Positions 15,358-63,307 of a DNA stretch of 64,000 nt are shown piece by piece. The stretch covers positions 8,930,001 through 8,994,000 of the forward strand of contig NC_087250.1 of assembly GCF_037042905.1 (NCBI RefSeq), in the 5' to 3' direction. The notes below the pieces were generated by a model that worked only from the letters and a program-made list of their open reading frames with translations, had not been told where the DNA came from and did no database searches. Position 1 is the first letter of the stretch, and each line of letters opens with the position of its first letter. This DNA comes from Lytechinus pictus. Its lineage: Eukaryota. Made by a program: the position numbers and the translations under genes.

Positions 15358-15658
15358 CCTGATGCCAAATCCGCCCTAAGCGAACCATAAAGCGTAGTTT
15401 ATTCCACAGAATCAACACAACTGTGAAATTAAATTCAGACAAGACAACAAAACTACGATTAAAACAAATATGATGGCACTTGGGTTCTGTATACTTGTCC
15501 CATGATTTTGAAACCTTTAAAGGTTCCCGACAAGGGTCTAAATCACCTTGAACATCCACTTCCGATCCTTTAAAAATGTTACAGTTCTTAAAAAAACATT
15601 TAAGGTTTTGAGTATGTAAAGGACCTTTTTGGGAACCCTCTTTCTCAAGGACTCTATA

Positions 15659-41600: not shown

Positions 41601-44600
41601 TCTCTCTCTCCCTCACCCATCCTCACTACGTGTACATATGTGTGCAAGATAAATTATGAGGAACAAATTACAATTGTATAGCATATGAAGTGATGTTTCT
41701 CAACCAGAGATTCCTTATATATTATCTATTGTTGCATGTTTGCATTTTTGTTCATCATATTAACCCATCTTGAGCCCTTTACCCCCCCCCCCGCCCCCCA
41801 TGATAAAAACCTAGTAGTCAAATGACGTTTCCTTTTATTTTCTTTTGATATACTTGCAATGTATACATGTGAGGAAAAAAAATATAGTGCGAAACATTTT
41901 TTGAAAATTTCAATTTAATTCCTTCAGGTGAGGCTTTGTCCACATTTCCAGAAAGACACAAGATAGTATCAGAAAGCCATGCCAAATTCAACGACTGAAT
42001 GGTTTGGAGAGCCAGACAAAGAGCCTAGAAATGTGATTTCACCCGTAAGTTAAACACTCTTGATCATAATTTTGATTCACTTTGGCATTTAAAGTAAGTC
42101 ACATAATAACAATTTGAATGATTTTTTTCTTCTTCATATGCTCTTTGTCAAGAATCCAGTCCAAATTTTAGAAATAAACTCTAAGTTTGAGGTGTTGATG
42201 ATTTTTTTTTTCAGCTGCAAAAATAACAAACCAATATCAATCATTGGTAGATAATTAATATTAATAAATTATTGGTGTGACTTGCCAAATTGGTACATGA
42301 ATATTCTGCATTTCTATAATTATTGACCCCCACCACTACCACCTAAGATGCAACATGTCAAATTACTGTCAAATTCACTTCATCATGTTTTTAATTATTA
42401 ATTTGTCAGTAAAGGAGTAAAATGACTCAGAAAGATTACCCGAAGAAGCTCACATAATTTTTTTTTTACTGGTAGATCCCTTACATTCATTTGATGAATT
42501 GAGTTCATGCAAAATCAACTGAATGTAATGAGTACAAAATCCTGTTAATACACCTTACTAGGTGAGGCTATTCTGGTAGATCATCCCAGGTGGCGCCTGA
42601 GGATCTTGTCCATTTGGAGAAATCTTGCAAAGTATCCAAAGGTGCCTCCACCCCTCCCCCCCCCCCCTCCCCCACAGTCTATTAAGGGTTAACAATGAAA
42701 ATGAAATTAGGAATAAATTTGGTATCTTGCTTATATGCATTATAAATTAATTTCTATTTCAGGTACTTCAATCACATGAACAGCAGCAGGAGCAAAAACA
42801 GCAGCAACCACACAGGAGATGTAACGACAGCATTGACCAACAGCAACAACAACAGCAGCATAAACAATTTCTGCAGGAGGTGCAAAAACCACACCGGCAA
42901 CCTCAACAACATCAAGATGTCCAACAACCACTCCGGGAACATTAACAGCAACCACAACTTCAGCAAGAGTTTCAACAAACACATCAGCAAAAACCAACAG
43001 CAGCAGCAACAACAGCACTTATGAAATGAATTTAATTGAAACTTAAAAGCCAATGAGGAAACATCTTTAACAAAATGAGACATCATTTGTTCATTCTTTT
43101 ACAGGATAAAGGAAAGCTTTTTTGAAAGTGTAAATTTGCAGGAACACAATGTATGTTCCCTATGTATCTATTTATTGAAATAAATTTGACTTTAAAAAGA
43201 ATGAATGATGATTCAATAAATATCTACTTTTTATTTGTCAATGAGTAAAAATACATGTATTTTCTATTTAGAATGACAAAAAGCAATTTATCAAATCAAA
43301 ATCATCAAAAAATTGACCAATATGGCTCTTAGGCCCTCAAAATTGTTGGTATTTTGATGAAAAAGCTGTTTCTGCGGCAATATTTGACGCAGCTCAAATA
43401 GCTGCATCAAATTTGCCGCAGAAATTGTCATTTGCCGCAGCTCCTTGAGCTGCGTCAAATATTGCCGCTGAAATTGTCATTTGCCGCAGAAAGTATCTGC
43501 GGCAAAGTTTTATGAAACGGAAACTTGACGCTGTTATAAGATTTGCCGCAGAAACACAGATTTGCCGCAGAAAATGGGAGTTGCCGCTGCGGCAAATGTT
43601 TTATGAAACGGGCCCCTGGAATTTATCTTTAAAAGAACCATATTGCCCTCGTCTAAAGACTCAGGCCAATATGATTCTGTTGTGGGCAATACATATATTT
43701 GATGTTCCCTCAAGGCCAGTCAATATTGTATAATTATACTCGAGTACCCTATAAAATTCCAATATTACACAAATGTAGTGGTCATTATGTGTTTTGCCCA
43801 ATTTTCTTAAAACATTGAAGTAGCAATAAAGTGTGAAGTCAACCTACCTGTTATGAATAGGTTTTGTATGTTGGATGTTGCAGGCATCTTCCTCACTAGA
43901 GAATGAAAGACTGCCCAAAGGACAACCCAAGGAACCGTGTGATATGTCACTCTCAAATATCTCATCTGAAATAAAAATGAATATTCAGTTCTGAATACAA
44001 AACATTATTGACAACATTGATAATGAAAGATTCCATAACAATAAGCGTCTATGTTTTAGTACAGGATAATCAACCTAGTTTGGGTTGAGCGTTGTGGCCC
44101 AGTGGATTAGTCTTCAGACTTGGAAACAGAGGGTCGTGGGTTCGAATCCCAGCCATGGCGTAATTTCCTTCGGCAAGAAATTTATCCACATTGTGCTGCA
44201 CTCGACCCAGGTGAGGTGAATGGGTACCCGGTAGGATTTTATTCCTTGAATGCTTTAGCGCCTATATGGCCGCTCAGCTGCAGCTGGGGTAATAATAATA
44301 TACCAAGTATATTTCAGCGCCTTGAGCACATAATCAATGTGGATTTGGCGCTTTATAAATACTCTATATTATTATTATTATTACCAACAAATCTCTCTCC
44401 CCCTCTTCTTCCACTGCCCCTTCAACCATTACCCCTCCTCCACTGCTCCCCTCCCTAACCCTCACATACCATCTGAAAAGCTTAGATCCCATGATGACGG
44501 GTGTCTATGTTTAATTACAGGTGCATCTATCTCATCTTGATGACCAACAAAACTTTCTTCCCCTCCATAACCCCCTCCCCTCTCCTTCTTCAATAGCAGA

Positions 44601-47600
44601 CCTGCCAATCTCTGGGAATGAAAAACTGTATTCTGTGATAAAAAAAACTGTATTTTTGCCTAAAAAAAGTGTATTTCATAATAAAATGCTTGGTTCACTC
44701 GCTGCATGCAAGCTAAAATGCGCACTGCTCTTGCAGATGAAAAAAAAAAACATTAAAACATGTGTATATCTTCACCCTGGTTTGAACAAAATGATTGAAA
44801 AAAAAACAAGTTACCTGAAATTACATTGATCTAATAACCATATTTGTGCACGTTTTATGAAATAGAGACATATAGAGATTATTTTTCTCAATAAATTACG
44901 ATTTAGTTTTTTTTTTTTTTTTTTTTACAAAAAACGTATTTTTCAAAGAAAAAACGTACTGCCGTATTTTGGTTGCAAAAACGTACTAAATACGGCTAAA
45001 ATGTACTGGTTGGCAGGTCTGCAATAATTCTATCCTTCAGCCCCCCCTCCCTAACCAACTCCCTTGACATGCCATCTGAAAAGCTTATTATTATATGAAC
45101 TACTTTCTCTTTTTAATATTTTTATTGTCACTTATTCGCTTTATTCTGATATTTGTAGATTACTTGTTTTAAGCTCTACTGTGTCCGTCTCCATTTTTGT
45201 ATATAGTTGTATATATAGTTTGTTTATAATTAGTATTGAAACTAAGTTTAGGGACTTCCCTTCTATACAAGCTTTGCTTTTCTTGGCAAGTCCCTCCGTT
45301 CATTTCTTCATTCTTTTCATGGATAAAATAATTGCAACTCACTTTAGTTTTGTTTAACTTATCTTCAATATTTGTTACAAAATGTCATTGATCTGTCTGT
45401 ATTATATTGAATAATCTATGTATTCTTACTTTGATTATATTTTGAAATTTTGGAAAATGGAAATAAATAAATCTAAATCTAAAGCTAAGATCCCACGATG
45501 ATGGGAGTCTATTGGAGTCTAGACGGCAATCTATTTCATCTGGGTAACCAGTAAAACTCTCTCCCTACTTCACCCACACATCTACCACTCCCTTCCTCTA
45601 ACACCCCTTCCCCCATTACCCCTACTCACAGCGCCCCTTCCCTATTGAATCCCCTCACATACCATCTGAAAAGCTGAGATCCCATGATGACGGGTGTCTG
45701 TGTTTGATCACAGGGGCATCGATCTCATCTTGGTTCATACTATGCTTGGATGGGGATAAGATCTTGAAGACAGCAGCACTCAGCAGGGTGAATAGAAGCG
45801 AAAGGAATCCTTGAAACTTGTTCCACTGGGGATAAAAGAAAATGGAGAGCACCTTCAAGATAAACACTAGGTTTGGAAAGATACTAGCATTTGAATACTA
45901 GCATTCAAATCAAAATCTTATCAACCAGTGTGGTGGCTCAGTTGGTAGAGCGTCCGTCTCGCAACCGAGAGGTTGTGAGACCAAACCCCGGCTGTGTCAG
46001 ACCAAAAGACGTTAAAAAAAGATGGGAGTTGCTGCTACCCTGTTTGGGCTCAACAATTAAAGGGATAGAGCCCCGTCAATCTGGCGCTGCACAGCGGCTG
46101 CCGAGCCTGCGATCAATTGGGCAAAAACAAATTTTCTGAGTATTTCATTGAATATAAAATATGAAAATATGGATTGTAAAATGAATTCAAAGAGAATCCA
46201 ATATAATGAACGCTCAATTGTTTGTATGTATTCATAGGTGGCAAATGATTTTATTTGAGAATGTGTAACAGCAGAAAAATAACAAAATACCCGTAAGTAT
46301 GGCATTCTAGGCATTTTCAAGGCTTTTTCAAGCAATAACAATATATTATATATAAGAATTGTAGGAGAAATAACATGTATATTCATCCATTTAGTTATTC
46401 TTTTTCTATAAGGAAGTTTATTGCATAATAAGAACATTTCAGAATGTCTTATTTAGGTATGTATGCATGAGGCAGAATAATGATTGGTATTTGTGTAATA
46501 TACAATGATTCTTGGCAGGCAATAGGGCCTGCTAAAAGCAGTTGGAAAATGAAAATAGGATAAGCTCTGTTGTTTACATTGTTAATTTCACTGAGGTCAT
46601 TCAAGAGTCTCCTAGAGTTAGGATTGCTCTAGAAAGAAGGAGAATGTTCTTCTTAAAGACAATACCAAAAGCTTCGAGAATAGTGGACATTTAAGGAATC
46701 TTCGCCACATGTGCCTATCTGTGTTATTGATCTTTAATGTTAAGCACTGCATACAATTAATGGCTTTAGCATGTTCCAAGGAATTCCTTCGTACCGGGTA
46801 CCCACTGACTACAATGCATGGAAAGTCACAGATGTAGGGTATTCTTACAATTAATTTCAACCTAAAATAAGAAGATGCTTTTCATTTCACATTTTCAGAA
46901 AATAAGCATGACGTGATTTGTTTCGAAATTGGATTGTGGACCAGTCGTTAAGTGCGAAGAGGCCTTCAGACAAGGTGCCTCACACAGTAGCAGATGATAT
47001 CTTACTACCAGCATATCAACCAAGGCGGAGTAGAGCATTTATTTTCCTCACCATTCTGCACAGCGCCCTCTTTCTTCTCTGCCAGGCAATAGTACGTTGA
47101 ACTACACTAGTCTCCATCAATTCAGCAAGGGATGGTCTCTTTTGAAAGTCTGGATTCATCATACTTTTTATCAATCCTTTCAGATCAGATGAAATACCTA
47201 GGGAATAAAAAAAGCATAATAAACATATTGGCCCGTATTCTGAACTCCGGTTTAAATTACACCCTGGTTTCAAAATGTGGTTTAACTATGTAGAGCCAAT
47301 TGGGGCACAAATCCCTAACAGTACACATCCAATTCATTAACTCATATGACACCCAAGTATTTTATCATTATGAAAGCAACAGAAATCAAAATAGTTAACA
47401 AGAAATATACAATATAAACAGATTGTTAGAATTTTTGGCTCCCATAATTTTAGCACAGACTTAAATTAAACCATGGTCTAATTTAAACCTGACATAGACT
47501 CAGAATACAGGCCATTGGGTGGTATCCTGATAATAAAACCAAGGTTTAACCCAAGTCTAAACTAGAATTATAACCGCACTTCTATGGAATGATGGGATTC

Positions 47601-47796
47601 ATAATATTTCTTCCATATTCATTGCACTTATAATGTATCAATTAATTCATTAGAATTCATAATTCATAACCAGCTTCTGATATTACTACTATTAGTAGTA
47701 GTAGTAGTACTACTACTACTACTACTACTACTAATACTACTACTTCTACTACAACTACTACAACTAGTACTATTACTACTACTACTATTACTACTT

Positions 47797-47827
<31 letters not shown>

Positions 47828-47843
47828 AACTATTACTACAACA

Positions 47844-47881
<38 letters not shown>

Positions 47882-47925
47882 TACAACTACTACTAGTACT
47901 ATTATTACTTCTACTACTGCTACAG

Positions 47926-47974
<49 letters not shown>

Positions 47975-47995
47975 TACAACTACTACTAGTACTAT

Positions 47996-48053
<58 letters not shown>

Positions 48054-51000
48054 GCTGCTGCTGCTAGTGCTGTTGCTACTACTACCACCACTTCTACTAC
48101 TACTACTACTCCTACTACTACTTCTACTACTACTACTACTACTACTACTGCTGTTGTTGTTATATAAAGTGCAAATACCTTCACGGCGCTAGCCCAGCAA
48201 CAGTTCCTTTACATATATACAGACAAGCTACAAATATACCTGTAAGCAAATTCTACCAATATATCAAATGAATGTTAGTGGCTCATGCATTATTAAGCAC
48301 GTAAATGGATTTCCTGACATACCAGCCGTTAGTTGCCATGGTATCCTCCCCCTTCGTAGATCATGCCAGGAGTCTCCATTACGAGGAAGCTCTAAGTCGC
48401 TGGCGAGCTCGAAGATCGTTATACCTAAGCTGAAAAACACAGGTATGTATTCTCATTGTATTTATTAAATCGAAGTTAACTTAGGCACACACTGAAAGTA
48501 ATATTGGGCAAATATTTTGTACAGAGCAAGGGAAATTGTACATAGAAGTGAATTGAATAGATAATATGTTTATAAACAAATTTTCTTGAAATTAGCTGTT
48601 AAAACTCTGTCACTTGCTGTTAACATAAAGAAACAACAAGATATGGCTGTTATATATTATTATATATATTATACTGCTGCCGCTGCTGTCAGAAAAACAG
48701 CACCTACAGACTCACTCTGCTGTGCAGTAAAGAGATAACATAAACAAATGAAGAATTTCTTCATACGAAAGTGAAGGAAAAATAGTTTACCTGAAAACAT
48801 CAGCATGCATTCCAAAGTGACCTTGTAAAAGCTCAGGTGCTAGGTATTTAGGATCTCCTTCTTGAGCATCAGTGAAATCACGCTAGATTAACAAAATAAA
48901 AAGAGACTTAAAGTTAAAATGGAAGTAATCATTGAGTTCTTGAACTCCTTTTATTATATTTAGTAAGAATATCATGAAACTAGAAGCATTCTCAATCGCA
49001 AACAATCCAAATCTTTGCCTCCGTCATTACCAGACAGAGAATATATAACACTTAAACTTTTTGTGAAACACCCCCACCCCCTGGTCTAATATCACTAACA
49101 CTAAAGCCCAGCGCATACTATGCGACATGATTGCATCAAGATCCAATTGTAACAAAATCAGAGTGTGCGCCAACCTACAACGCACTCACTGCAATAGCGA
49201 CCCGCTTTGTTACAGTAGGATCGCAGAACAAATCTCAGACATTTTACGTGTCAAATCTTTGTGATTTTTCTGCGCTTTTACTAATTTCAGCCAATCAGAT
49301 TTGTCCTAGACGACAAAATCATGGCCAATTTGCTGCACTGCTGCAGCCCAGACAAAGAACGCGCAAAAGAAGAGGCACCGTGAGATGCAACGCGCTGCAG
49401 AGCTGTTGCAATGTGTGCGCTGGCCTGCGATTCGATCGCACGAAGATGGGAACGGCAACTTGTTGGAATCAGATCTTAGTGCAATCGCATAGCATAGTTT
49501 GCGTTGGGCTTTACATCCATATGATTAAAAGACCTATTAGTGTTATTTACCAAATTTTCAGCTGACAAAATGCAATACAATAAAGACAAAGTAGAAATGA
49601 ACCATCTGGGGCAGTCGACCAAAGATTGAGACCACGTAGTAAAACAAGACGGTGTTTGTCTGGTTGTTAGGAATGTTCCCTTTTATTATACGATCTGTAT
49701 ATTTCTATCCAGTCTCTCTCGCTCATCTCTCTACTCTGGAGCTAATTTTATTCTCCTTTTCTTTCACTTTACCTCTCCTACCTCTCCTCCCGACTCATCT
49801 TTACTTGATCTCTTTCTCAGTCTATTACTGCATCCTTGAGTTCATCCCTTTTATTGACATATTTTCTTATTTGAGGCTACCTTGCCTTTAGGCCTTCTTA
49901 GGTGTGCCTCACAAGCCTTGCATTTTTATAGAACACAACTGTATTTTATATTTTACCATTTTACTATTTACCATAATCTGTGATGAGGTACTACATCCTT
50001 ATGTACATTGTAATTGAAATGTTATATTGTATGTAGGTTTTATCAGCCTATTTTGATTGGCTTGTGAAATAAAGATGAAATAAATGAAATGAAAGACCAT
50101 GCTCTCATCTTTTTTCTTGAACTGGTATCCCTTTACTCAGTTCAACAAAAGAGTTTTTATTATTATCATTATTTGTTTGGCATCGCCTGTGTCTAGGAGG
50201 CGAAAAGCGAACTGAATCACTATGACCGCAGGTCTCTCCTCCCAATATAACCGATGGGGGGGGGGGGGGGGGGGGGGGGGAGTGCACGCGGACCACTACA
50301 CCGGGGTTTCCCCCTACTCTTATGCGAATAGTGCAGTGGGTTCTTAACGTGCAAAGGTGGTGACTCTCCTCTACACGGGGCCTCCATTTAATGTCCTATC
50401 CGAGGGACGGAGTGTTTTCCATTGTAACATAGCCTGCATCTATGAAACATGGGAAAGACGTTTACACACAACGCACTGGCTTCAGTCATCCACCAGGGGT
50501 GGACTCGAATCCACGATCTTTGGTTCGATGGGCAGACGCGTTATCGACTGAGCCAACAACGCTCTCAAAAGAAGTTTAGAAGATCCCTTTGTTAATATTC
50601 TCATCACAATATCCTGAACCACATCGCAAGGTGAGACCACTTAAGATCTCTTTCAAGACTGTTCAAACTTTCCATTATACATTAAACTGGTTTCCACTCA
50701 GAAGGTAGATAGGTATGCGGTCCAAGTCGATATAAACCCACAAAAAAATCAAATGAAATCCATCCACAAATTAAATCTTACCCTAAAAAAATAATAAAAA
50801 CTTACTTCATTCATTTGAACAGACAGTCCAAAGTCCCCCAGCTTGCAGACTTTATCAAAAGATATGAAGATGTTCTCTGGTTTAATGTCCAGATGCAACA
50901 GACCGTGTGAATGCATGTGGTGTAATCCCTGAAAAATATTGAAAAACAGATTTAACAAAAACTGTTACAACGTATTTCTTTTCTCCTGGTTATGGGATCA

Positions 51001-54000
51001 ATTTCACACAATTTTCATCAATACTGAGTGAACCCAATGTTGCAGCACAACATGGATAAATTTCTTGCCGAAGGAAATTACACATCTAATTTTCTACTTT
51101 ATATAAGATTGCCCAACTGCAAGGTACATGTAGTTCAACATTGAATCAAATATTTGTGTGGATTATTGAATGATTTTAACATGCAATACATCATTTTAGA
51201 CATTAGCCTCTGCTTTTTAAAAATATTTAATACACCTATCATCGACTGAGCTGTCAAATGATAATAATACCAACATGCTTATATAGCACATATCACTGCC
51301 AAATGCGTCCCTATGCGCTTCGTTTGATATTATTACCCTGGCTTTAGCCCGGCAGCCTTTTACAGCGAGGTGGCATTTCAAGGAATAAATTCCTGCCGGC
51401 TACCCATTTACCTCACCTGGGTCGAGTGCAGCACAACATGGATAAATTTCTTGCCGAAGGAAATTACACCATGGCTGGGATTCGAACCCACGACCCTCTG
51501 TTTCAAAGTCCGAAGATTAATCCACTGGGCCACAACGCTCCACACAAAATGATGAAAAGCTTGAAAAGAAGCTTGATTTTAGAGATAAGACACAAGTAGC
51601 ATCATTCTTTTGCCTTGGAAAATTTCTCTGCAGGAATTAGAACATTTATAGATTGCCACTCTTGCCATATTCCTAAAATACCGTTTTGGAGCTGTCTTCT
51701 CAATTTTTTTTTATAATAAATAATAATAATCAGTACTTACAGACCCATAATGCCATATGAATAGTCTCTATGTGTGATATGTTTTTGACACAGATTTGAA
51801 TCCGTCGAAGTTTGTTATTGTTCTTATATTATGAGGTAGGTTGCCCCATAATTTTGGTGCCATTTCCACATAAGCTTTATCACCAAAAGTCTTGAATTGG
51901 ACTTTTATCTCAGAGAGAATATCCTTTGATTGGGAACAAAATTGTCAAATGTTCAAAATGTGAGATACACCATTTAATCATGATAATGAGACAAATTCAC
52001 ACAATCAATATTTCAACAATAAATGAGTGAACCCCAAACTTCATAGCCTGTATTATTCTTACTCTTTGAAGGTGCTTCATCAATATCAATTTTTTTTTTT
52101 CTTGTGTGTGGGTTATTGTCACTCAAACAATTTTGACAGGTAATGTATTATCAATGTGGAGTGTTGTGGCCCAGTGGATTAGTCTGCTGACTTTGAAACA
52201 GAGGGTCGTGGGTTCGAATCCCAGCCATGGCGTAATTTCCTTCGGCAAGACATTTATCCACATTGTGCTGCACTCGACCCAGGTGAGGTAAATGGGTACC
52301 TGGCAGGAATTTATTCCTTGAAATGCCACCGCGCTGTAAAAGGCTGCGAGGCTAAAGCCAGGGTAACAATATCCAATTAAGCGCATAGGGACGCATTTGG
52401 CAGTGATATGCGCTATATAAGCATGTTGGTATTATTATTATTATCATCTTACACTTTACAATCTGCATATTCAAACCTATAACATTATCTCGAAATTGAT
52501 TTTGGCTCATTGTTTTCAAATCCCAGCCATGGTGTAGTTTCCTTCAGCAAGAAATGTATCCATGTTGTGCTGCACTTGACCCAGGTGAGCAAAATAGGTA
52601 CCTAGTAGGAATTAATTCCTACTGCGTGTGCTCTGTAAGTAATTTCGGCCGCCAATTTGAAGCCGGGGTTATAATATCCAAGTCCTTTTGACACCCATAA
52701 AGACGTTATAATCATAATGTAATAATGCGCTATACCAGAACTGTTTATTATTATTATTGAGGTGGAAGATCAGAAATAGAGGGCGATTTCTTCACAATAC
52801 CTGAATAAGATCCACTAAGAAGCTCCAGAGGATATGTTCAGGAATCTTGTGATTCTGTTCAGCATAAGACTGCAAGCTGAAATTAAAGTGAAATGAAATG
52901 TAATGAAAATAATCCAAGTTTTACCCTGGGAAACTACTACCTCACATTGTATCCCCTCCCCCCAACAAAATAAATTCTCTGCTTTGTTTTTTTTTTCTGG
53001 GACGCACAGTAGAGCTGTAAGCTGGTTCTTCAAATAGCCCTGCTTATTAGCCTGGAGGACCCCTTTCAGAAACCTTCATTGCATTCCTGAGGTGGGCACC
53101 TGAAACAAGCTAAAGGCAGGCCCACATTTATAGAATACAAGCTTTAATAGATATAAATATACATGTAAGTATTTCAAAATTCAAAAATAGATATAAATAT
53201 TTTGCCTCTGAACATCTGAAGGACTAATGAAATCAAAAGCAAAGAAATAAGAAATGGAAGCAGGAGGGGTGTATACATGTACATATCATTATCTACGAGA
53301 GGTAAAATTTTTTCTGCTTCGCTTTATCCCAAATTACATGTACCTCGGCCTTTCTTCTGTCATCTTGCACAGTTCTATCTGTTCGTCCTCTCTCCCAACA
53401 ACCCCAGGCTTTTCATTGTACAGTTCAGTCTGTAAATGCTCTCCCTCTCCCCACCCCCATACCCGACCCTCCCTCCCTCAGCCCTTCTTGCCATCTTGCA
53501 CAGTTCTGTCTATAAATGCCCTCTCTTACCCCATCCCCTTCCCATACGGATACCCCACCCTCCCTTAGCCTTCTTACGTTATCTTGCACAATTCTCTCTG
53601 CATATCCCATAATGCTCTCTCCCCACCCCTCCCCCCCTGATACCTAACTATCCCTAACAGTTCCAGCTATATAAATGATGCACAGCATTTGTATAGCGCC
53701 ATGTATCTGTCAAAGACATTCAAAGGCGCATTGGAGGAACCAGCCAATCTGGGTAGCCTAGAAGGGCGCGCACACAGAACTGTGACCCGCAGGTCTCTCC
53801 TCCCGATATCTGGGGGAATGCAGGAGACCACTACACCGGGGTTTCCCCCTACTCTTATTCGAATAGTGCAGTGGGTTCTTTACGTGCAAAGGTGGTGATT
53901 CTCCTCTACACGGTGCCTCCGTTTAACATCCTATCCAAGGGACGGACTGTTTTCCACTGTAACATTGCCTGCATCTATGAAACATGGGAGAGACATTTAC

Positions 54001-57000
54001 ACACAACGCACTGGCTTCAGTCATCCGCCCGGGGTGGCAGACGCGTTACCGACTGAGCCAACTTTGCTTTCAAATGCCCTCCCTCACCTCATCCCCACCC
54101 CATACAGATGCCCTACTCTCCCTCATACTTCTTACAACTGTATGTCATCTTCTACAGTTCTGTCTGTATATAAAATATCCTCTCACCCCGTCTCCACCCC
54201 CATACCCAACCCTCCCTCAGGCTGTCTTACGTCATCTTGCACAGTTTTCTCTGTATATCCCATAATGCTCTCTCTCCGCGTCCCCCCCCCCCCCCCGATA
54301 CCTATTATAATAAACCCTCCCTCAGCCCTTCTTACGTCATTTTGCAGAGTTCAGTCTGTATATATAAATGTCCCCTCTCAGCCCATGCCTTATAGAACTC
54401 CACACAGTTGGGGTGTTTGGAAAGACTCTCGTGTTTCTTCACTTCTTCTAGCTTTCTCCTCCTGCAAATTTAATTATAATCATTTCAAAAATAAAATCAT
54501 AAACATTATAGCCTACTTATAGTTTGTTAAAATGTGAATTATATCTGCATTGAAGTACATGTATTTCTCTAATATTCAGATCTTGGAAGAGTGTCGCAAA
54601 TGTTTACAACAGTTTTGATAAGTGATCATTCATACTAATTTGAATTTGAATGTTCGACTCAGATTAAAGACCGTTTCTGTTAATATTATTCTAGTCCTCA
54701 TTCACAGTGCTGATAAATGAAGCACTTTCAAAGGAGGATATAAAATAAATGAATTCTTAAAAATAAAATGCCTTTCCATTAAAGAAATTTGTTTCTTGAA
54801 GTTTTCCCCCTTTCCCCATTAAAGAATGCTGTGGCCGAGTGGTCCATGGCGCCCGGCTACACCATGAAGGTCTGGGGTTCGATACCCAGCACAGCCCTTG
54901 GCCAAGGAATTTTATCCACATTGCTCTGTTATCTTGCATCTAATAAATGAAAATGCTTTATGCATTATTGATACCAAGAGTAAACACAGATATCATGAAA
55001 AAGTCTGTAAAACCAAGGTTTATTGTTACCATATTATCCTAGATGTACATGTAGATCAGGTACAGGGCCTTTTCACACATGAATCTTGAATCATCTTTGT
55101 AATAATGATTGCAATTTGTCTTTAGAATCATCAGACCTTTCACACCCTCACTCAAAAACTATGATTTGAATTTGAATTCCTGAGCAAAGGCGATATGTGT
55201 CCTTGGTGACTTGTCAATCAAAGCACTGCATCGCAAATACAAACTACGATGAGTGCGTGACAATTGTATTATCTATGGAAGTGCCTGAAAGGTCACGTAA
55301 GCTCCGCCCCCCCAAAAAAATGTTTTAGAGTTCAAGCCTTTCAAACGCAAACTTCGTACTGTAAATTGAGTGAAACTTAACTGGAATTCATCTCCGGAGT
55401 AGAATTTGAATTCGTGATTGTGATTAGCGTTCATGATTCTAATCATGTTCTACTTTGGATTCACACGTGCTAAAAATTTATTCTTCTTTGTCACTGGAAT
55501 CATCATTCAAATTACGACTTTTTTTACAGTATGAAAGGGCAGACAGTTATTTTGGTGAAATGTCATGCTCAATTTGCTTATTTCTCAGCAATTACACAAT
55601 TTCTTCCAGAGTCCTCTGGAACATATTTCAATCCATACACATACATACAGACATTTGGGTGGCCCCTTTGTTTGATACCATAAAGCTCATTTTGAAATTG
55701 TTACCATAGCTAACATTTATCTAAGAAATAAATAAGGTTAGGCTTTGTTATATCTTGTGGCTTTGAGCTGATACATTATTCAATAACTCACTTGTCCGAC
55801 TCTCCTCTGAACCTATCTCTTGATCTCTTGACCGCGTAATACCCGCCATCTTCTTTACTCTGGACCTTGAAAACCTGGTATGAATGCAACAAAAACATGA
55901 GTTAAAGGCCAATGTGAACACATCATTTTATCACTCATTGTATGCGTTGAGTGAAGTTGATCAACACTACTAATATGACTTGTATCATACTATTACTAGG
56001 GGTGGGCAAATAAAACATTTTTGGTAAAAATTGCTCCCAAATGACAATTTTTGTACAATAGAACCTTGATTATACATGTATGTTCATCTGTCGTTTGTTA
56101 TCTGTCTGAATATTTGTTTTCATGGCCACTGAGTCCAACAATAGATAAAACAGACATGTTTGGTCTTTTGTACTGTCCTTTTTAATAAAAAAAAAATATC
56201 AATTAAGATGATAGGTTAAATCAATACTTTCAACTGAATACCAGCCTAGGGCTCCAAACAAACAAGCGGGTAAGGAAAATTATTGAATTTTACTTGCCTG
56301 ACACAGCAATCTACTTGCCCTGGGCAAGCGGTAGTGTCATTATTATTAAAAGGTTATGATTTTAATTTGTTTATATAGAGGTTTTATAGAGGAATACTTT
56401 ATGAAAGATTTAATGATTTTATTTTAAAAAATAGCTACATGTATGGCAAGCCAATGAATTTTTGGTTTGAGACAGCATGATTTATCCAAAGCTACTTTAT
56501 AATTTCTTACTTCTCCAAATGATCCAGCTCCTAGTCTTCTCTCCACTCTGAAACACTGATCAAAATAGAGTTCTCCACTGCTTTGGTTATAGTGAGGGCT
56601 CTGGAGAACAGCTGGAAAATAGACTAGTCAAGGAATATAAACATCAATTGGGCATTGAAGCATACACCTGTAATTCAAGCTACAACCATGAAAAGGAACT
56701 TTACAAATTGATGCAGAGCTTTGTTGAATCGTGACGTTAAAACTCTGTCCCAGATGTAGGCAATAATCATATCATATTTAATATTCATGAGTGTAAAGAC
56801 AAACAAGCATAGATCACTTTGAAGGAGTACATCTATAGTGTGTGGCAAAAGAAGTCAAATTTGACTGATTGTCATACTGTGTAAAGTCCTTAATCTTAAA
56901 GGAAAATATCACTATAATCCTTAAATTGGCAAAGCAATACAACCCAAATTTCAATGCATTCACAAGAAAGTTTGTAAATTTTCAACCCATACTTTACGAG

Positions 57001-57620
57001 TTGCTAATTTAAAGAATAAAGCTGGAAAAACAAGAGCTTCAAATTGCTGCTAGTGTCAAATGAGTTTGAAATACTTTTTTCCATGTAGGATACATTGATC
57101 TGTAGTGTTGTCAACTTGAAATATAAAATATATTGAAGACCTTTTATTATGATTATTGTCTTTTGAAAATAATTAAAGACAACATTTTCTACAAAAGATG
57201 CATTTATTTCTATAAGTGTGAAATAATCATATTGTTGCAAGTTTGAAGAATAAAGAGCTCTGAATTTTATTTTAGTCTCATTAGTTTTTGTACATTCTTT
57301 CTTTTTCTTTCTTCCATCCTTCCTTCCTTCCTTCCTTCCTTCCTTCTTTCTTTCTTTCTTTCTGTCTTTCTTCTATCTTAAGGATATATTTATTTGCTTG
57401 TATAAAATAGTACAAGTGTTGTCATCTTGGAATAATTAATCTTAATCGTAATCACTATTTTCTATTGAAGGATACAGTTATCTGCTTGTCTGAAGGACAC
57501 ATTTGTAGCTCTGTTCTCATCCTCTGTTCTAGATCGGTGAGGAAACAAACGGCTCACAGACGGAAGACTCTTCGCTGGAGGACGCGGTGGTAGAGAGCCA
57601 TGAGGGGTCGAGCCAGTATT
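26648..57620 (-). CDS. PKMYT1: Membrane-associated Tyr/Thr Cdc2-inhibitory kinase Myt1 (Wee1 family), 5'-partial, 14 exons, 539 aa in window
   Basis: Phase-consistent exons total 1620 nt including the stop. Motifs: [55 protein letters not shown], a hydrophobic membrane segment, TP/SP sites and C-terminal EPRSL (RxL). The start-codon exon was not found in the window. Confidence 0.93.
27030..27596. mobile_element. Kolobok-like MITE
   Basis: TIR AGGRGAATGAAACC, TTAA TSD. Confidence 0.8.
27615..27792. repeat. (CATC)n/(CATT)n microsatellite
   Basis: Direct observation. Confidence 0.85.
27937..28132 (-). CDS. PKMYT1: Myt1 exon M (KLSPCGSP...[11 protein letters not shown]...EPRSLSL)
   Basis: Resembles the vertebrate Myt1 tail (TPR..CTP..LD..EPRNL), GTAAGT donor. 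Confidence 0.85.
29079..29348. mobile_element. Harbinger-like MITE (CWG target)
   Basis: TIR GGCCCCGTTGTACAAAGAGTTACGATTGATCCGATCAATCG, partial copy at ~13890-14060. Confidence 0.8.
29854..29964 (-). CDS. PKMYT1: Myt1 exon L ([18 protein letters not shown]...)
   Basis: tttag acceptor, GTAAGT donor, TP/SP sites, phase 2/2. Confidence 0.8.
30015..30635. mobile_element. piggyBac-like MITE
   Basis: TTAA|CCCTAA..GACTGGG ... CCCAGTCTATTTAGGG|TTAA, related copy at ~40580-41260. Confidence 0.8.
30640..30971. mobile_element. Second piggyBac-like MITE sharing the TTAA of the previous one
   Basis: TTAA|CCCTTATCAAACTGGG ... CCCAGTTAAGATAGGG|TTAA. Confidence 0.75.
31241..31666. mobile_element. hAT-like MITE
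   Basis: TIR CAGACCTGCCAAC, imperfect 6-bp flank duplication, close copy at 44597-45021. Confidence 0.75.
32598..36759. mobile_element. 4.2-kb hAT-like non-autonomous element inside the left arm of the foldback
   Basis: GGTTCTAT 8-bp TSD, right end GGATCCGCGCCTG, degenerate left end TTGGTGCGGTTCC. Confidence 0.7.
36980..37301. mobile_element. hAT-like MITE
   Basis: CATTGGCGGCGGAAG...CTTCCGCCGCCTAAG, TAATTAAT TSD. Confidence 0.8.
39343..39757. mobile_element. hAT-like MITE
   Basis: TAGTGTTGT...ACAACACTG, TSD ATAACTAT/ATAGCTAT. Confidence 0.7.
40124..43070 (+). pseudogene. Decayed multi-exon gene inside the Harbinger-like element (product unknown, T/P-rich and Q-rich segments)
   Basis: Exon-like blocks 40124-40485, 41928-42044 and 42763-~43070 with AG/GT borders and downstream AATAAA. 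In-frame stops appear on splicing. Confidence 0.45.
41305..41557. mobile_element. hAT-like MITE
   Basis: CAGTGGCGTA...TACACCAGTG, ATGGATTT TSD. Confidence 0.8.
43848..43965 (-). CDS. PKMYT1: Myt1 exon K ([11 protein letters not shown]...PIHN)
   Basis: tttcag acceptor, GTAGGT donor, phases 1/2 fit. Confidence 0.82.
44086..44383 (+). mobile_element. tRNA-derived SINE
   Basis: GTGGCCCAGTGG A-box, GGTTCGAATCC B-box, (TTA)n tail. Confidence 0.85.
44470..44535 (-). other. Duplicated 3' part of Myt1 exon J with intact donor; candidate 66-nt cassette exon
   Basis: Encodes (D)[21 protein letters not shown], identical to exon J, with 6 differences that are all synonymous. Donor GTATGT, weak AAG acceptor. 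Confidence 0.5.
44597..45021. mobile_element. hAT-like MITE (copy of 31241-31666)
   Basis: TIR CAGACCTGCCAA, CAATAG/CAATAA flanks. Confidence 0.75.
45073..45539 (-). pseudogene. Second exon-J duplicate, split by a ~395-bp insertion (pseudo-exon)
   Basis: cccag|(D)[21 protein letters not shown], interrupted by an AT-rich LINE-tail-like insert with AAAGCT duplication. Donor is GC. Confidence 0.55.
45663..45825 (-). CDS. PKMYT1: Myt1 exon J ([15 protein letters not shown]...SSWDLSFSD)
   Basis: Membrane-association segment, GTATGT donor. Confidence 0.88.
45925..46150 (+). mobile_element. tRNA-derived SINE, second family
   Basis: GGTGGCTCAGTTGGTAGAGC head, degenerate B-box, non-tRNA body. Confidence 0.65.
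47052..47197 (-). CDS. PKMYT1: Myt1 exon I ([10 protein letters not shown]...ALCRM)
   Basis: Subdomain XI, GTGAGG donor. Confidence 0.9.
47683..48160. repeat. (CTA)n imperfect microsatellite, ~480 bp
   Basis: Direct observation, source of the poly-Val ORF. Confidence 0.95.
48323..48429 (-). CDS. PKMYT1: Myt1 exon H ([16 protein letters not shown]...)
   Basis: Kinase subdomains IX-X, GTATGT donor. Confidence 0.92.
48791..48882 (-). CDS. PKMYT1: Myt1 exon G ([17 protein letters not shown]...ADVF)
   Basis: APE motif, GTAAAC donor. Confidence 0.93.
49105..49510. mobile_element. PIF/Harbinger-like MITE
   Basis: AGCCCAGCGCATACTATGC...GCATAGTTTGCGTTGGGCT, TAA/TTA flanks. Confidence 0.7.
50155..50566 (-). 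mobile_element. tRNA-derived SINE, third family (copy at 53685-54062)
   Basis: Reverse strand TTGGCTCAGTCGATAAC..GGATTCGAGTCC, body shared with 53685-54062. Confidence 0.75.
50806..50928 (-). CDS. PKMYT1: Myt1 exon F ([17 protein letters not shown])
   Basis: Catalytic loop and DFG, GTAAGT donor. Confidence 0.95.
51260..51543 (-). mobile_element. tRNA-derived SINE
   Basis: Near-identical reverse complement of 52155-52443. Confidence 0.85.
52155..52443 (+). mobile_element. tRNA-derived SINE
   Basis: A/B boxes, core and (TTA)n tail. Confidence 0.85.
52801..52876 (-). CDS. PKMYT1: Myt1 exon E (TLQSYAEQ...LVDLIQ)
   Basis: ttcag acceptor, GTATTG donor. Confidence 0.9.
53345..54335. repeat. Degenerate tandem array derived from the Myt1 exon D 3' end plus donor
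   Basis: Repeated CAGCCCTTCTTACGTCATCTTGCACAGTTCTGTCTGTATATAAATG-like units, interrupted by a SINE. Confidence 0.7.
54336..54461 (-). CDS. PKMYT1: Myt1 exon D ([12 protein letters not shown]...[10 protein letters not shown])
   Basis: tgcag acceptor, GTAAGA donor. Confidence 0.92.
55792..55874 (-). CDS. PKMYT1: Myt1 exon C ([18 protein letters not shown]...)
   Basis: AVK motif, GTGAGT donor. Confidence 0.92.
56511..56611 (-). CDS. PKMYT1: Myt1 exon B (SVLQSPHYN...LGAGSFGE)
   Basis: ccag acceptor, GTAAGA donor, Gly-rich loop. Confidence 0.9.
56612..57475 (-). other. U12-type (minor spliceosome) GT-AG intron in Myt1
   Basis: 5'ss GTATCCTT and branch site TTCCTTGAC (56635-56627) with the A 17 nt from the 3' end. 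Splicing here restores the reading frame. Confidence 0.85.
57476..57620 (-). CDS. PKMYT1: Myt1 exon A (NTGSTPHG...SFRQADN)
   Basis: tttcag acceptor, U12-type donor GTATCCTT. Confidence 0.85.
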
Positions 57621-58740
57621 CTGAAACAAATCAAAAAAGAAAAAAAATGTTACAATTCTAGATTTAATTCAATATAGTAGTACAACACAATTTGTTGGGA
57701 GCCATTGAGGTTCTATGAAGTGGTTTCAGGCAGACGAGAAAAGAATGAAAGGTTTTAGTTTACTAGTATAGTAGAACATGGTAGGCTTTACTTGTGGACT
57801 ACACTTGTAGCCAATGATAATGATTCACAGCATTTATATCGCATGATAAACAATCATAGGTGCAGATTAAAGCCTTATAAAAATTACAGTGTGATGTGTC
57901 TCCTGAAATTGTCACTTTGGTTTACATTTATTACACCTTTTTTGTTTAATTAGGCCCAGATCTTCTGTTAGTGTTAGTTTCACCAGGATTTTATTTTTGT
58001 AAGTTTCTTGAATTCCCTTAGGTACATCTCGAGCAAATGAGAATGGAGTAATAATAATTACATTCACTGTTTTATAATTAATTAAATAAATATGAGTAAA
58101 CTTTTAAACTTTTTCATTTTTTTTCCTTCAATTTTAGTGGATGGGACTTAGGTCTTGCTGGCTTGTACAATATGTAGGCCTAGGCCTATATTGAAAATAT
58201 TTTGCGTGTTACCTTATTTTCCGCAAAGTCGCATATATCTCAAAATAAATCAATATCTTGAAAATCTGATAACACCAACAGAAAAATTAACTTAAAGTTA
58301 AAATTACCCAGATGAGTAATTTTGTTGAAGATTTGGTGTCCATTTGTTGAAATATTGACAAAATTTGTTGACTTTTGCATCCGTTCAATGAAAGTCAGAA
58401 CTTCTCGACAAGCATCAAGAAAACACAATTTTTGCAAGAAGTGCCAGGTCTCTAAAGTAAAAAAAAAAAAAAATGTGATACCAACCGATTTTATGGCATT
58501 TTAAACTCCATCTGATAGTGATACTATTAATCTTACCTTTGTCCACTCCTAGTCCATTTCTATTATAAAGCTTTGCAAAACGATCATGCGAAAGTAAAGG
58601 TCACACCTTTTCAGCCACTCACATTAACTTCATCCATACTCGATCACCATTGGCATGGATGATGCAAATTAAATTGAGATAGCGATACCAGCGAAACCCT
58701 TGATCTACTAAAGTTACATTATAATTCCATCAATCGATTT

Positions 58741-58976
58741 TAGGGACAGTGATTTTCCGTTTTACCGGTAAATAAAATGGAAATTCCGTTTGGTTCTTAT
58801 ACTTTTCATGTAAAATTTAACGGAATCCACCTTTGCAAAACGGAGGTCAGGTTTTTGCTGTGTACATTTTCAGTGACAAAACGGAATTTCCATTTTTAAA
58901 TCAAGTTCAAACGGAATTACAGTGATTTTCAGAAACAGAAAATACAATTTTTTGAGACGGAAAATCACTGTCAATG
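58741..58976. mobile_element. hAT-like MITE
   Basis: GACAGTGATTTTCCGT inverted repeat, CGATTT flank duplication. Confidence 0.65.
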
Positions 58977-59333
58977 CGATTTTAACTATCATTTGATCAG
59001 TGATCATGACTAGATAGGATCTTGCCTTCTGTTTGGTATTGATGATTTCAATTAACTTTGATTGTGTGTGAACTTTGAGTTGGACATTATAATTTGGGGG
59101 TTGAAAACTTGAATGATAATTTTTCAAATCGACAAATGTGCGCAAATTGGCATAATCGTGATATAGTCCCCAAATCCAGAAGTGGGGATTATTAGAATCA
59201 CACCTACCAGAACGCATGAAAATCACTTCCTTTCTCCAGAACACAGTCTCCAACTCTCGCACAACTCTGTGGCAAAATGATAACACACACAAATAACACA
59301 TTGTATATAAACACTAGGGTTCTCTCCCTATTA

Positions 59334-59635
59334 TATACTCGTGATACAGTCCCCACTCAACGGGAAATCAAGCTTGATTTTCACGGCGGTGGGGACAGTT
59401 TCAACAGTATATATACTCGTGATCCAGTCCCCACGCTATGGGATACACGGTTCACTTTGCACGCAGTGGGGACAGTTTCAACAGTATAGTATACTCGTGA
59501 TCCAGTCCCCACGCTATGGGATACACAGTTCGTTTGGCACACAGTGGGGATAGCTCCAACAGTATATTATACTCGTGATACCGTCCCCTCACAACATAAA
59601 ATCGTGCTCGTTCAACAAGGGGATGGGGACAGTTT
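59334..59635. repeat. ~78-bp tandem repeat with palindromic constant part and variable spacer
   Basis: ATACTCGTGAT..GTCCCC at ~59335, 59413, 59491 and 59570, paired with GTGGGGAC. Confidence 0.8.
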
Positions 59636-60895
59636 CCCGATGCATTGTGACAAGGATAAAACATTTTAGAGTATGGCTGCGGAAGTTGAGGGAGGGGGAC
59701 TTCAGCTAGTCTGCTGGGCAAACCCTTCGCTCGAGTTAAGGGTCTGAATGTGCAGCCTACTCATGCCTTGTGTACTGAAGGCTCTCTCGCGAAGGGTCTG
59801 CTTCATCTTTGGAAGTTGGGCACAAATTTTGCTATGTCAATCACTGTGAGTTTGTTACCATGACATTCCCTCTCTGAACTCTCCTCCCACTAGCTGGTCA
59901 TTTGGGCCAGTCACCTACTGGGCAGGAGATCAACTGGTGTTTGTTTAATTACACGCTGCATCGCACTTATACTCCTGATTGAAACTCCAGTCTAGCATTA
60001 TGCAATAGCATAGTGGCATACATATATGGCAAATGTCTTGCCATGTTCCCTGACTCCCTGATAAATAAATGTTGCTTTCTCTCTTTTTGAATCTTGATAG
60101 TTTTCTTAATTGTGCATGTTGGTATGTTTATTATTTTGGATCACACAGTGTTTTTTTTAAACAAAGCCCTTTTCGTTGCTTATAATTAACATTGTACAGC
60201 AAAGTTTTATCAAACAAAAGTAATCTTTGACAGCGCAGGCATAACATTTTATCCTACATGTATAGGCATTAGAAGGCAAAGAAAGTTCTGGAAATATTCT
60301 CCAAAACTGTAACATCAATATCAATTTTGTTGATATTATCTTAATTATCAAGTTTTAGTTTGTAGGCTTATATGGGTTTGTTTTCCCCTATAATTATTGG
60401 AAAAAAGCAAAGCATTTATCAATTTACACTCACTAAATTTGATATCAAAGATACTCTCGAATAATTCATATTCATCTACAATATGCCTTTTGTGGTTCCA
60501 CATGTACAAATTTGCTCAGTCATATTAATAATTTTTCATAATATATGATTACAAACAGAAGGAATTGAAACATTTCACATCATAAGATAATGCAAATGAA
60601 AATGGTGTGTGACATGGGTAATTCTCTCATTTGCATGATGATCAGGAGGTAGGCCTTCATGTACAAATGTATAAACATTAAACTCAATGTTTTGTGAAAA
60701 ATTAATGTCATAACATTCTTATCTTTAACACCAACTCGATTACTTAAAATGGTAAAAGAAAGAAATAACATTTTATAGAAATTACACTAAAAATGAGACA
60801 GCAAAAAGCCGAACAAACCCTGGAAAATACAAAACTACTACAACCTATATATCAATTGAAATACTGATCGAAAGAAAAAAAAAAGAAAACATTAA

Positions 60896-61497
60896 AGGTC
60901 AAGTCCACCCCAGAAAAATGTTGATTTGAATCAATAGAGAAAAATCAAACAAGCACAATGCTGAAAATTTCATCAAAATCGGATGTAAAATAAGAAAGTT
61001 ATGACATTTTAAAGTTTCGCTATTTTTCCACAAAATAGTTATATGAACGAGTCAGTTACATCCAAATTAGAGAGTCAATGATGTCACTTACTCACTATTT
61101 CTTTTGTTTTTTATTGTTTGAATCATACAATATTTCAATTTTTACAAATTTGACAATTAGGACCTCCTTGCCTGAACCACAAAATGTTCAAATAATGGAA
61201 TTCCACATGTTCAGGGAGGAATGAAACTTCGTTTCACATGACAATGAAGAGAAAATCAAAATATTTCATATTTCATATAATAAAATACAAAAGAAATAGT
61301 GAGTGAGTGAGTGAGTGATGTCATCAGTTCCCTCATTTGCATGCCAACCGAGATGTGCATATAACTGTTTTGTGAAATGAAGTGAAACTTTAAAATGTCA
61401 TATTTTACATCCGATTTTGATGAAATTTTCAGCATTATGCTTGTTGGATTTTTCTCTTTTTATTCAAATCAAGTCATTGTTGGGGTGGACTTGTCCT
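60896..61497. mobile_element. Kolobok-like MITE
   Basis: TIR AGGWCAAGTCCACCCCA, TTAA TSD. Confidence 0.85.
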
Positions 61498-61501
61498 TTA
61501 A

Positions 61502-62077
61502 AAGACAAGTCCACCCCAACGAAAAGTTGATTTGAATAAAAAGAGAAAAATCCAACAAACATAACACTGAAAATCAAAATCGGATGTAAAATAAGAAAGT
61601 TATGACATTTTAAAGTTTTGCTTAATTTCACAAAATAGTTATATGCACATCCTGGTGGGTATGCAAATGAGGAGACTGATGACGTCATCCACTCACTATT
61701 TCTTTTGTATTTTATTATATGAAATAGGGAATATTCTATTTTTATCCTTGTCAAGTGAAACAACGATTAATTCTCCCCTGAACATGTGGAATAAGCATTG
61801 TTTAATACTATATGATTCAGTCAAGTTGGTCCTCATTTTCAAATCTATAAAAAATGAAATATTGTATAATTCAAACAATAAAAAACAAAAGAAATAGTGA
61901 GTGAGGGACATCATCAACTTTCTCATTTGAGTTGTGCATATCACTGTTTTGTGAAAAATAAGCAAAACTTGAAACTTTCTTATTTTTCATCCGATTTTGA
62001 TGAAATTTTCAGCGTTTTGCTAATTTGATTTATCTCTATTTATTCAAATCAACATTTTTCTGGGGTGGACTTGACCT
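61502..62077. mobile_element. Kolobok-like MITE, same family, opposite orientation, shared TTAA
   Basis: AAGACAAGTCCACCCCA...TGGGGTGGACTTGACCT|TTAA. Confidence 0.85.
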
Positions 62078-63307
62078 TTAATGACCTGACAGTTTCTCTG
62101 TTTCCAATTATTCCCCTCCTTATATCATCTTCACATTTTTTCTCTTCATTTCTTTCTTCGTATTTGTGTATGTTCCTTCCTTTTTTATTTACCATTTTCC
62201 CCTATTTTCGGCAGAAGGGGGGGGGGGTGCGGAGCCGCTCTGGCTCTCTGGATCCACATAATTATCGTTACAGGGAAATACAGTAATTGTAGTTTTGGCC
62301 TATAGTCTTCTTTATACAAAGCAGTATAATTGTGTGAATAATTGGGCATGCGTCGCGAACGCGTAGCGCCAAGGTGGCGGGGGGGGGGGGGGTGCAGTGA
62401 AATATATTGCTGTACACATGCGTAACCAAAAAAAGAAAATAGTTTAAAGGGGTGCATTTTTTAAGTTTTGGACGCGGACCGCGCATGCACTTGTTTAGGG
62501 TATCAAAAATACAAATTTTCAAAAAAGGGGTGGTTTTGAAAGACTGGTCAATGGTCAATCGCGGGGTCAAACGTAGAGTCTATTTAGGGTATGTTTTTTC
62601 CAAAGTTTTTTTTTAGACTAGCAAAACGCGTTTAGGGTATGTTTTTTCCTCGGGGCTTTTCCTCCTCCTTTCTGAAAAGTGTATGGGCCTGAGACAAAAC
62701 TTGTTTAGGTGTCATATTCTGGCGACAACTCGTTTAGGGGCCAAAATGTGCAAAATGAACCCGCGAAAAACTTGTTTAGCGGGTTATTTTCAACACAGAG
62801 GAAAACTCGTTTATAGGGGGGTTGGAAATAATTTGGTCATGTGTACAGCAGTACATTTGACTGCCCCCCCCCCCCCCCACGGCAAGGCGGGTAGAGTTAT
62901 AATGTTAACCGACTTTTACATCCTTTCTTCACCAGGGGCTCCTTTCCCTTTTTTTTCACCCGTGACTTTCCCCCATTTTTTCTTATTCATTTAGGTTTCC
63001 TTTTTGTTTGGGAGGGATGTCCCCACCAGAAATTTAGTGTAGACTCATCCTTATGCCCCGCCCATGCTTCCACTGCCTACATTATAACTTTATTTTTTAT
63101 TTTCTTTATTACTGGTACCTTATTTTCATCCTAATCGATGTGCATGTGCAATTTTTTTATTATAAGCAAAGTTGATTTGAGTAAAAAGAGAAAAATCCCA
63201 CAAGCATAACGCTGAAAAAAAGAAAGTGATAACAATTTACATGTTTGCTTCATTTCACCAGGGAGTTGTGATGTATTTCACAACAATGATGTGAACATCC
63301 TGGTCGG

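What the first reader, a model, noticed from the sequence alone, without database searches (positions are those of the whole stretch)
56612..57475. U12-type minor intron in the Myt1 kinase gene
Seen: exon A would hit TAG four codons past ...ADN unless spliced at T|GTATCCTTC. The intron ends TTCCTTGAC-tagtctattttccag. Established: RTATCCTT and TTCCTTRAC close to the 3'ss are the U12 consensus, and such introns are rare and can be rate-limiting. Inference: minor-spliceosome activity could gate this G2/M inhibitor, since retention truncates the protein before the kinase domain. I recall no intron at this position in human PKMYT1, but this is unverified.
Basis: partly seen in the sequence, partly recalled or inferred. 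Interest (0 to 1): 0.7.

Follow-up and report, generated by a model that had tools for sequence, protein, structure and literature searches.

The report
Ancient minor intron in urchin Myt1
A sea urchin gene for the cell-division brake Myt1 carries a real intron of the rare "minor" (U12) type that is shared with mollusc-like and cnidarian-like animals and is not on human or mouse minor-intron lists, but nothing seen here shows that it regulates the gene.

Summary
An 864-nt phase-1 GT-AG intron (57475-56612, minus strand) of a Lytechinus Myt1/PKMYT1 gene has perfect U12 donor and branch-site motifs, each unique in the window. Reads confirm this junction: 27 raw reads in two runs, plus contigs in two more.

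It is old. At the same site, 3 of 7 intron-bearing metagenome loci are U12-type, 3 are U2-type and 1 cannot be typed; 4 other genomic loci lack the intron. Thirteen of 14 short ORFs that break here read x-Ile-Leu, the translation of a U12 donor, in oyster-like and cnidarian-like sequences. PKMYT1 is absent from human and mouse minor-intron lists.

The proposed G2/M gate is unsupported. No unspliced reads were seen (0 versus 27, shallow data), and all 10 introns tested would truncate the protein if retained.

Verdict: a new member of a known class, probably already in automated catalogues that I could not query. No earlier scan finding on Myt1 turned up.

The parts
57476..57620 (-). Myt1 coding exon A (N-terminal regulatory region, ends with the first base of a Ser codon)
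   Evidence: 100% identical to L. variegatus Myt1 over 48 aa; covered by reads and contigs
57467..57475 (-). U12-type 5' splice site GTATCCTTC, preceded by -1 T
   Evidence: 0 mismatches to RTATCCTT; the only GTATCCTT in the window; used in reads
56612..57475 (-). 864-nt phase-1 GT-AG U12-type intron
   Evidence: joint 56611/57476 in 4 of 4 runs
57462..57464 (-). in-frame TAG reached after C-I-L-Q if the intron is retained
57295..57372 (.). short tetranucleotide microsatellite inside the intron
56627..56635 (-). U12-type branch site TTCCTTGAC; predicted branch A at 56628 (-17)
   Evidence: the only TTCCTTRAY in the window; use as branch point is inferred
56612..56614 (-). 3' splice site CAG; a nearer TAG right after the branch site is not the acceptor in the joints listed
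56511..56611 (-). exon B, linker and start of the kinase domain (glycine-rich loop)
43848..55874 (-). nine further coding exons (55874-55792, 54461-54336, 52876-52801, 50928-50806, 48882-48791, 48429-48323, 47197-47052, 45825-45663, 43965-43848) with U2-type introns
   Evidence: joined translation equals the core of P0008
26651..29966 (-). three last coding exons (about 29966-29853, 28134-27937, 26680-26651) after a 14-kb intron
   Evidence: tblastn of P0009; boundaries viewed

Best explanation
This is an ordinary GT-AG U12-type intron in the sea urchin Myt1 (PKMYT1) gene, removed routinely by the minor spliceosome. U11 would pair with the donor and U12 with the branch site, and the CAG 17 nt from the branch A is used (junction shown; snRNA use inferred from motifs). 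It is inherited from an early animal ancestor, at least the cnidarian-bilaterian one (inferred from sequence placement). It is kept as U12 in echinoid, mollusc-like, other lophotrochozoan-like and cnidarian-like genes, changed to U2 type in some lineages and deleted in others, probably including vertebrates. Myt1 production needs the minor spliceosome, but the intron is a passive inherited feature, not a tuned switch.
For: Perfect unique motifs, and the other 9 scored introns lack them. Exact junction in 4 of 4 runs. Phase 1 and -1 T fit the known U12 biases (PMC7367187 passages). A related sea urchin has all four minor snRNAs and 274 minor introns (PMC11347168 Tables S4, S7). Same-site U12 donor and branch motifs in L001, L005, L017; U2 donors in L007, L008, L019; no intron in L004, L021, L013, L015. 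13 of 14 ORFs breaking at the site read x-I-L, none reads x-K/E, 1 is ambiguous (18 of 4096 hexamers give I-L by chance). Zero intron depth against 27 spliced reads. Repeated loss and conversion fit the neutral pattern in PMC10639083 (passages).
Against: No knockdown, lariat or intronIC score was possible. The U12 snRNA genes of this genome were not seen (no genome held; none in the window). The branch site is a little further from the acceptor than the 11-13 nt optimum (PMC3584512), and the last 20 nt are 69% pyrimidine like the U2 introns. Read depth is low, stage and tissue are unknown, and the raw-read runs differ from the window at 5 synonymous sites in exon A. Taxon labels of unnamed loci rest on trees and best hits. 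Retention as U12 in three distant groups could reflect selection.
Confidence: 0.8

Rival explanations
1. Regulatory gate: limiting minor-spliceosome activity leaves this intron in at certain stages, such as oogenesis or the cleavage-to-blastula transition. That lowers Myt1 through nuclear decay or nonsense-mediated decay and so tunes G2/M entry.
For: Retention stops translation before the kinase domain. The U12 type has persisted in urchin, oyster-like and cnidarian-like genes. Slow U12 splicing as a rate-limiting step is a published model (PMC3584512 passage). The intron lies six codons after the serine that aligns with the starfish SGK/Akt site (PMC6829662 passage).
Against: 0 unspliced against 27 spliced reads in rRNA-depleted libraries (rough 95% upper bound 10.5%). 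Early stops are generic to all 10 introns tested. The intron is converted or lost in 7 of 11 informative genomic loci. Two cnidarian-like ORFs (P0063, P0064) appear to have this intron already removed while the next one is still in (anecdotal). PMC10639083 found no link of minor splicing to proliferation in a fungus.
Confidence: 0.12
2. The intron looks like U12 but is spliced partly or wholly by the major spliceosome (hybrid), using the GT donor and the short pyrimidine run before the CAG.
For: GT-AG ends; 69% pyrimidine at -20 to -5; natural U2 versions at the same site in L007, L008, L019.
Against: The donor and the -1 T are poor U1 matches (established knowledge). Both U12 motifs are perfect here and are kept together in L001 and L017 and, with two branch mismatches, in L005.
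Confidence: 0.05
3. The U12 signals are a chance match or a recent urchin-specific gain.
For: PKMYT1 is not a minor-intron gene in human or mouse lists. The linker around the site varies in length between species, so exact position homology has about one residue of slack.
Against: Joint chance about 2.5e-7; same phase and same donor motif in distant animals.
Confidence: 0.02

Closest known systems
Canonical GT-AG U12-type introns of animals, e.g. human/mouse BRAF and MAPK14 minor introns (Olthof et al. 2019, PMC6717393, supplement rows)
   Same: The first nine intron bases equal those of the BRAF donor row; the branch core CCTTGAC equals that of the MAPK14 row; GT-AG subtype; host gene is a protein kinase.
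   Different: PKMYT1 is not in those lists; this intron has no listed mammalian counterpart.
Catalogued minor introns of Strongylocentrotus purpuratus (274; PMC11347168 Table S4) and the introns.info database (PMC10639083)
   Same: Same class and same animal group; public protein models of three urchins already join across this site.
   Different: No per-gene entry for Myt1 could be seen; the databases cannot be queried here.
Minor-to-major conversion and minor-intron loss series (PMC7367187, PMC10639083; passages)
   Same: U12, U2 and absent states at one orthologous phase-1 position.
   Different: This particular Myt1 series was not found in print.
Srsf10 autoregulated minor intron (PMC7244321; search listing and abstract start only)
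   Different: No alternative splice site use or retention was seen for the Myt1 intron among the joints shown (15 lesser joints were not shown).

Membership tests
U12-type intron | 5' splice site RTATCCTT | tested here: met
   0 mismatches; unique in window
U12-type intron | Branch site TTCCTTRAY close to the 3' splice site | tested here: met
   0 mismatches; motif at -24 to -16, A at -17; slightly beyond the 11-13 nt optimum quoted in PMC3584512
U12-type intron | Predicted donor and acceptor are the ones used in RNA | tested here: met
   27 raw junction reads plus 2 contigs, 4 of 4 runs
U12-type intron | No distinct polypyrimidine tract | tested here: inconclusive
   69% pyrimidine at -20 to -5, within the 50-88% range of the U2 introns; the window overlaps the branch motif
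U12-type intron | Organism has U11, U12, U4atac, U6atac | tested here: inconclusive
   No genome held, none in the window; all four are listed for S. purpuratus
U12-type intron | Splicing depends on the minor snRNPs | not testable with these tools
   needs knockdown
U12-type intron | intronIC or PWM score above threshold | not testable with these tools
   only mismatch counts to the consensus were made
Myt1/PKMYT1 kinase | Closest named proteins are Myt1; Pkinase domain | tested here: met
   human PKMYT1 structure 3p1a E=1.6e-86; Pfam Pkinase 75-320 of P0008
Regulatory (rate-limiting) minor intron | Higher retention than neighbouring U2 introns, or condition-dependent retention | tested here: inconclusive
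   No depth in the U12 intron nor in non-repeat bins of neighbouring U2 introns in two shallow runs of unknown stage, other haplotype

The most novel reading that the evidence does not exclude
Myt1, the kinase that holds oocytes and cells in G2, has depended on the minor spliceosome since early animals through one intron just after its SGK/Akt regulatory serine. In invertebrates that keep it, minor-spliceosome output sets Myt1 dose during oogenesis or early development. Vertebrates escaped this link by deleting the intron, so minor-spliceosome loss would push invertebrate cells into premature mitosis rather than only slowing them.
Probability: 0.1. Interest if true: 0.7.

Novelty: new member of a known kind. 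Interest (0 to 1): 0.3.

Why it matters
It adds a core G2/M regulator to the invertebrate minor-intron gene set that mammal-centred lists miss. It also gives one site with all three evolutionary states (U12, converted U2, deleted), useful for testing whether minor introns in cell-cycle genes are kept by selection or by inertia. It is not surprising in itself: a 14-intron gene has about a 3-14% prior chance of holding a minor intron.

Tried and rejected
Whole-genome checks (snRNA genes, genome-wide scoring) were not possible: no genome is held. Rfam found nothing in the window. No listed holder of the stretch was on record as RNA; the 12 small-share rows are not used as evidence except X1 and X10, which were laid. 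Contig depth was not used as expression. An ORF running through the site is not proof of intron loss: P0064 runs through it, yet genomic P0124 of the same 90% cluster reads S-I-L, so the 14 contiguous ORFs were not counted as losses. My first automatic tally misfiled oyster-like ORFs as contiguous and was redone. L010, L011, L012 and L014 were dropped as non-Myt1 kinases, and L003, L006, L009, L016, L018 and L020 as cDNA-like. L008 (59 aa), L021 (near copy of L004) and the four non-Myt1 loci were left out of the trees. Supplement searches without a working positive control are uninformative: PMC11347168 for PKMYT1, PMC13216214, PMC2831892. The supplement of PMC9501576 could not be read, and that of PMC10639083 was listed but not read. 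The insect review PMC3291851 does not mention Myt1. No zebrafish or Xenopus list was seen. No structure or complex prediction was run, as it does not bear on the question.

Full report
Observation. On the minus strand, exon A (57620-57476) ends with the first base of a Ser codon. The intron begins GTATCCTTC at 57475 and ends TTCCTTGAC, 15 more bases, then exon B at 56611. It is 864 nt long and phase 1, with the predicted branch A at -17. GTATCCTT and TTCCTTRAY each occur once on both strands of the window, and the joint chance at a given intron is about 2.5e-7 from composition. Of the 10 introns scored (of 13 in the window), only this one matches: the other 9 have 3-6 donor mismatches and 2-4 branch mismatches. 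The consensus strings are recalled; they agree with BRAF and MAPK14 rows in PMC6717393 (supplement rows). Read-through gives C-I-L-Q-stop.

Gene. Exon A is 100% identical to Lytechinus variegatus Myt1 and 81% to Strongylocentrotus purpuratus Myt1. The 11 joined exons are contained exactly in an L. pictus RefSeq protein (P0008), so the window is most likely L. pictus. Human PKMYT1 (PDB 3p1a) aligns without a gap across the junction. The Pfam kinase domain starts 21 residues after the intron. The first coding exon of the full-length model P0009 has no match in the window.

RNA. Four runs were laid on 54236-60715. The joint 56611/57476 appears in all four: 9 reads (7 starts) and 18 reads (14 starts) in two rRNA-depleted raw-read runs of one study, and one contig each in X1 and X10 (a second organism). 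Exon reads are stranded as expected for a minus-strand gene if the library is of the usual kind. Depth in all four bins of the intron is 0 in all runs; the rough 95% upper bound on unspliced molecules is 10.5%. Limits: only about 6% of each raw run was read, stage and tissue are unknown, 15 lesser joints were not shown, and the raw reads differ from the window at five synonymous sites in exon A, so a divergent intron haplotype could map poorly. Non-repeat bins of the neighbouring U2 introns are also empty on the sense strand, so no difference in splicing speed can be read.

Conservation in DNA. A pattern for exon B found 21 metagenome loci. Four are other kinases and six are cDNA-like, leaving 11 genomic Myt1 loci. 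Seven have a phase-1 intron at this site. L001, L005 and L017 have a perfect U12 donor, with branch motifs at 1, 2 and 0 mismatches starting at -19 or -20. L007, L008 and L019 have GTAAG donors and no branch motif. L002 shows only the acceptor. Four loci lack the intron (L004 and its near copy L021, L013, L015). The split codon is six residues before the conserved Tyr in those loci and seven in the urchin, so position homology has one residue of slack in a variable linker. Trees put L001, L005 and L017 with Lingula and molluscs (98/96; L001 and L005 again at 88, where L017 was not included). L002, L007 and L019 form a firm clade that joins the sponge Oscarella only weakly (85/73 and 87), so a sponge origin, and with it an age at the root of animals, is tentative. 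L008 was too short to place.

Conservation in read-through ORFs. A phase-1 U12 donor translates as (C/S/G/R)-I-L, a U2 donor usually as x-K or x-E. Of 50 short proteins returned cover only the exon B side, 14 run through the site, and 14 break at it: 13 read x-I-L, none x-K/E, one is ambiguous. All 16 extra cluster members fetched read x-I-L, but 14 are one oyster-like cluster. Four representatives have an oyster protein as best hit (three at 88-94% identity), and five of the 13 have a jellyfish protein as best hit. Genomic P0124 reads S-I-L where the spliced P0125 of the same cluster continues into exon B; P0125 matches L018 in sequence and contig length, and L018 groups with jellyfish at 85/89, while P0125 is unresolved. 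The profile may slightly favour x-I-L endings, and I-L can arise from 18 hexamers of which 4 are ATCCTN, so this is support, not proof. The U12 state most likely goes back to the cnidarian-bilaterian ancestor; conversion is held to run from minor to major (PMC7367187, PMC10639083; passages).

Vertebrates. PKMYT1 has 0 hits in the eight supplements of PMC6717393 (human and mouse lists; BRAF and MAPK14 found) and 0 in six supplements of PMC12332006 (one file cut; controls found). A fish-like ORF (P0070) runs through this site and through both flanking urchin intron positions, breaking later. That fits my recollection that human has one long exon here, which is recalled and not checked; P0070 could also be a partly spliced RNA. 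So 'not a minor intron in mammals' is tested, and 'deleted in vertebrates' is inferred.

Mechanism. Shown: the junction, the motifs, the frame and the shared site in other animals. Inferred: recognition by U11/U12 and branching at 56628. S. purpuratus has all four minor snRNAs and 274 minor introns among about 147,000 (PMC11347168 Tables S4, S7); this genome's own snRNAs could not be checked. Phase 1 and -1 T fit the U12 biases. Myt1 output therefore should depend on the minor spliceosome, as for any such gene. A tuned gate is a further claim without support here. Six of 10 introns hit a stop within 4 codons if retained and all within 28, no retention was seen, and 7 of 11 genomic loci have converted or lost the U12 state. 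PMC10639083 concludes that its results do not support cell-cycle regulation as the reason minor introns persist (passages). In favour of keeping the gate open: the U12 state persists in three distant groups, slow U12 splicing is a published model (PMC3584512, passages), and no oocyte or staged embryo data were examined knowingly.

Novelty. No paper held PKMYT1, U12 and minor spliceosome together. 'PKMYT1' with 'minor intron' and 'Myt1' with 'U12-type intron' each gave one off-topic paper, seen as a listing only. None of the top 40 of 446 papers mentions Myt1, and searches gave nothing on urchin minor introns in their listings. The library lacks most subscription papers. Public urchin models already splice this site, and introns.info covers more than 1500 species, so an automated entry probably exists; I could not check it, nor several supplements. 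A 14-intron gene has a 3-14% prior chance of a minor intron. The scan's earlier findings hold other U12 introns but none in Myt1; none changed my reading.

Verdict. Interest 0.3; the regulatory reading has about 10% probability and would merit 0.7.

Noticed in passing
window 58637-58623 (-), 29966-26651 (-): RefSeq L. pictus models split this gene: P0008 starts with a five-residue exon (MDEVN) found at about 58637 in a repeat-rich stretch, and P0007 holds the last three exons. An older model (P0009) is full length, and its first coding exon is not in the window.
   Followed up: partly
window 54335-53300 (-): The 3' end of the exon at 54461-54336, with its donor, is copied imperfectly several times in tandem in the next intron, leaving possible decoy donors.
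   Followed up: no
window 44542-44471 and 45540-45481 (-): Near-exact and partial copies of the 3' end of exon 45825-45663, the first with an intact-looking donor.
   Followed up: no
window about 57515-57490 (-): The starfish SGK/Akt site peptide RPRAVpSFRQ (PMC6829662) aligns with RATNVSFRQ here: the Arg at -3 is lost in Lytechinus and the Arg at -5 in S. purpuratus, so this control of Myt1 may be weakened in these urchins.
   Followed up: no
P0063, P0064 (compare P0124, P0125): Cnidarian-like ORFs run through the U12 site but break at a later intron position that urchins lack; likely partly spliced RNA with the minor intron removed first.
   Followed up: partly
L004 and L021: Myt1 is uninterrupted over about 390 residues in long genomic contigs, suggesting wholesale intron loss or a retrocopy in an unplaced animal.
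   Followed up: no
P0071, P0074, P0095, P0100: ORFs starting in the intron just before exon B contain H-L-N, F-L-N or (T/S)-L-T, compatible with a CCTTAAC branch site; inferred from protein only.
   Followed up: no
window 40124-40486 (+), 42746-43021 (+): Low-complexity open frames inside the 14-kb Myt1 intron on the opposite strand; no Pfam hit.
   Followed up: partly
window 14383-15375 (-): Long exon of a major-facilitator transporter gene (Pfam MFS_1).
   Followed up: no
window 59329-59636 and 60890-62083: A 78-bp tandem array and nested direct/inverted copies of a mobile-element-like repeat upstream of exon A.
   Followed up: no
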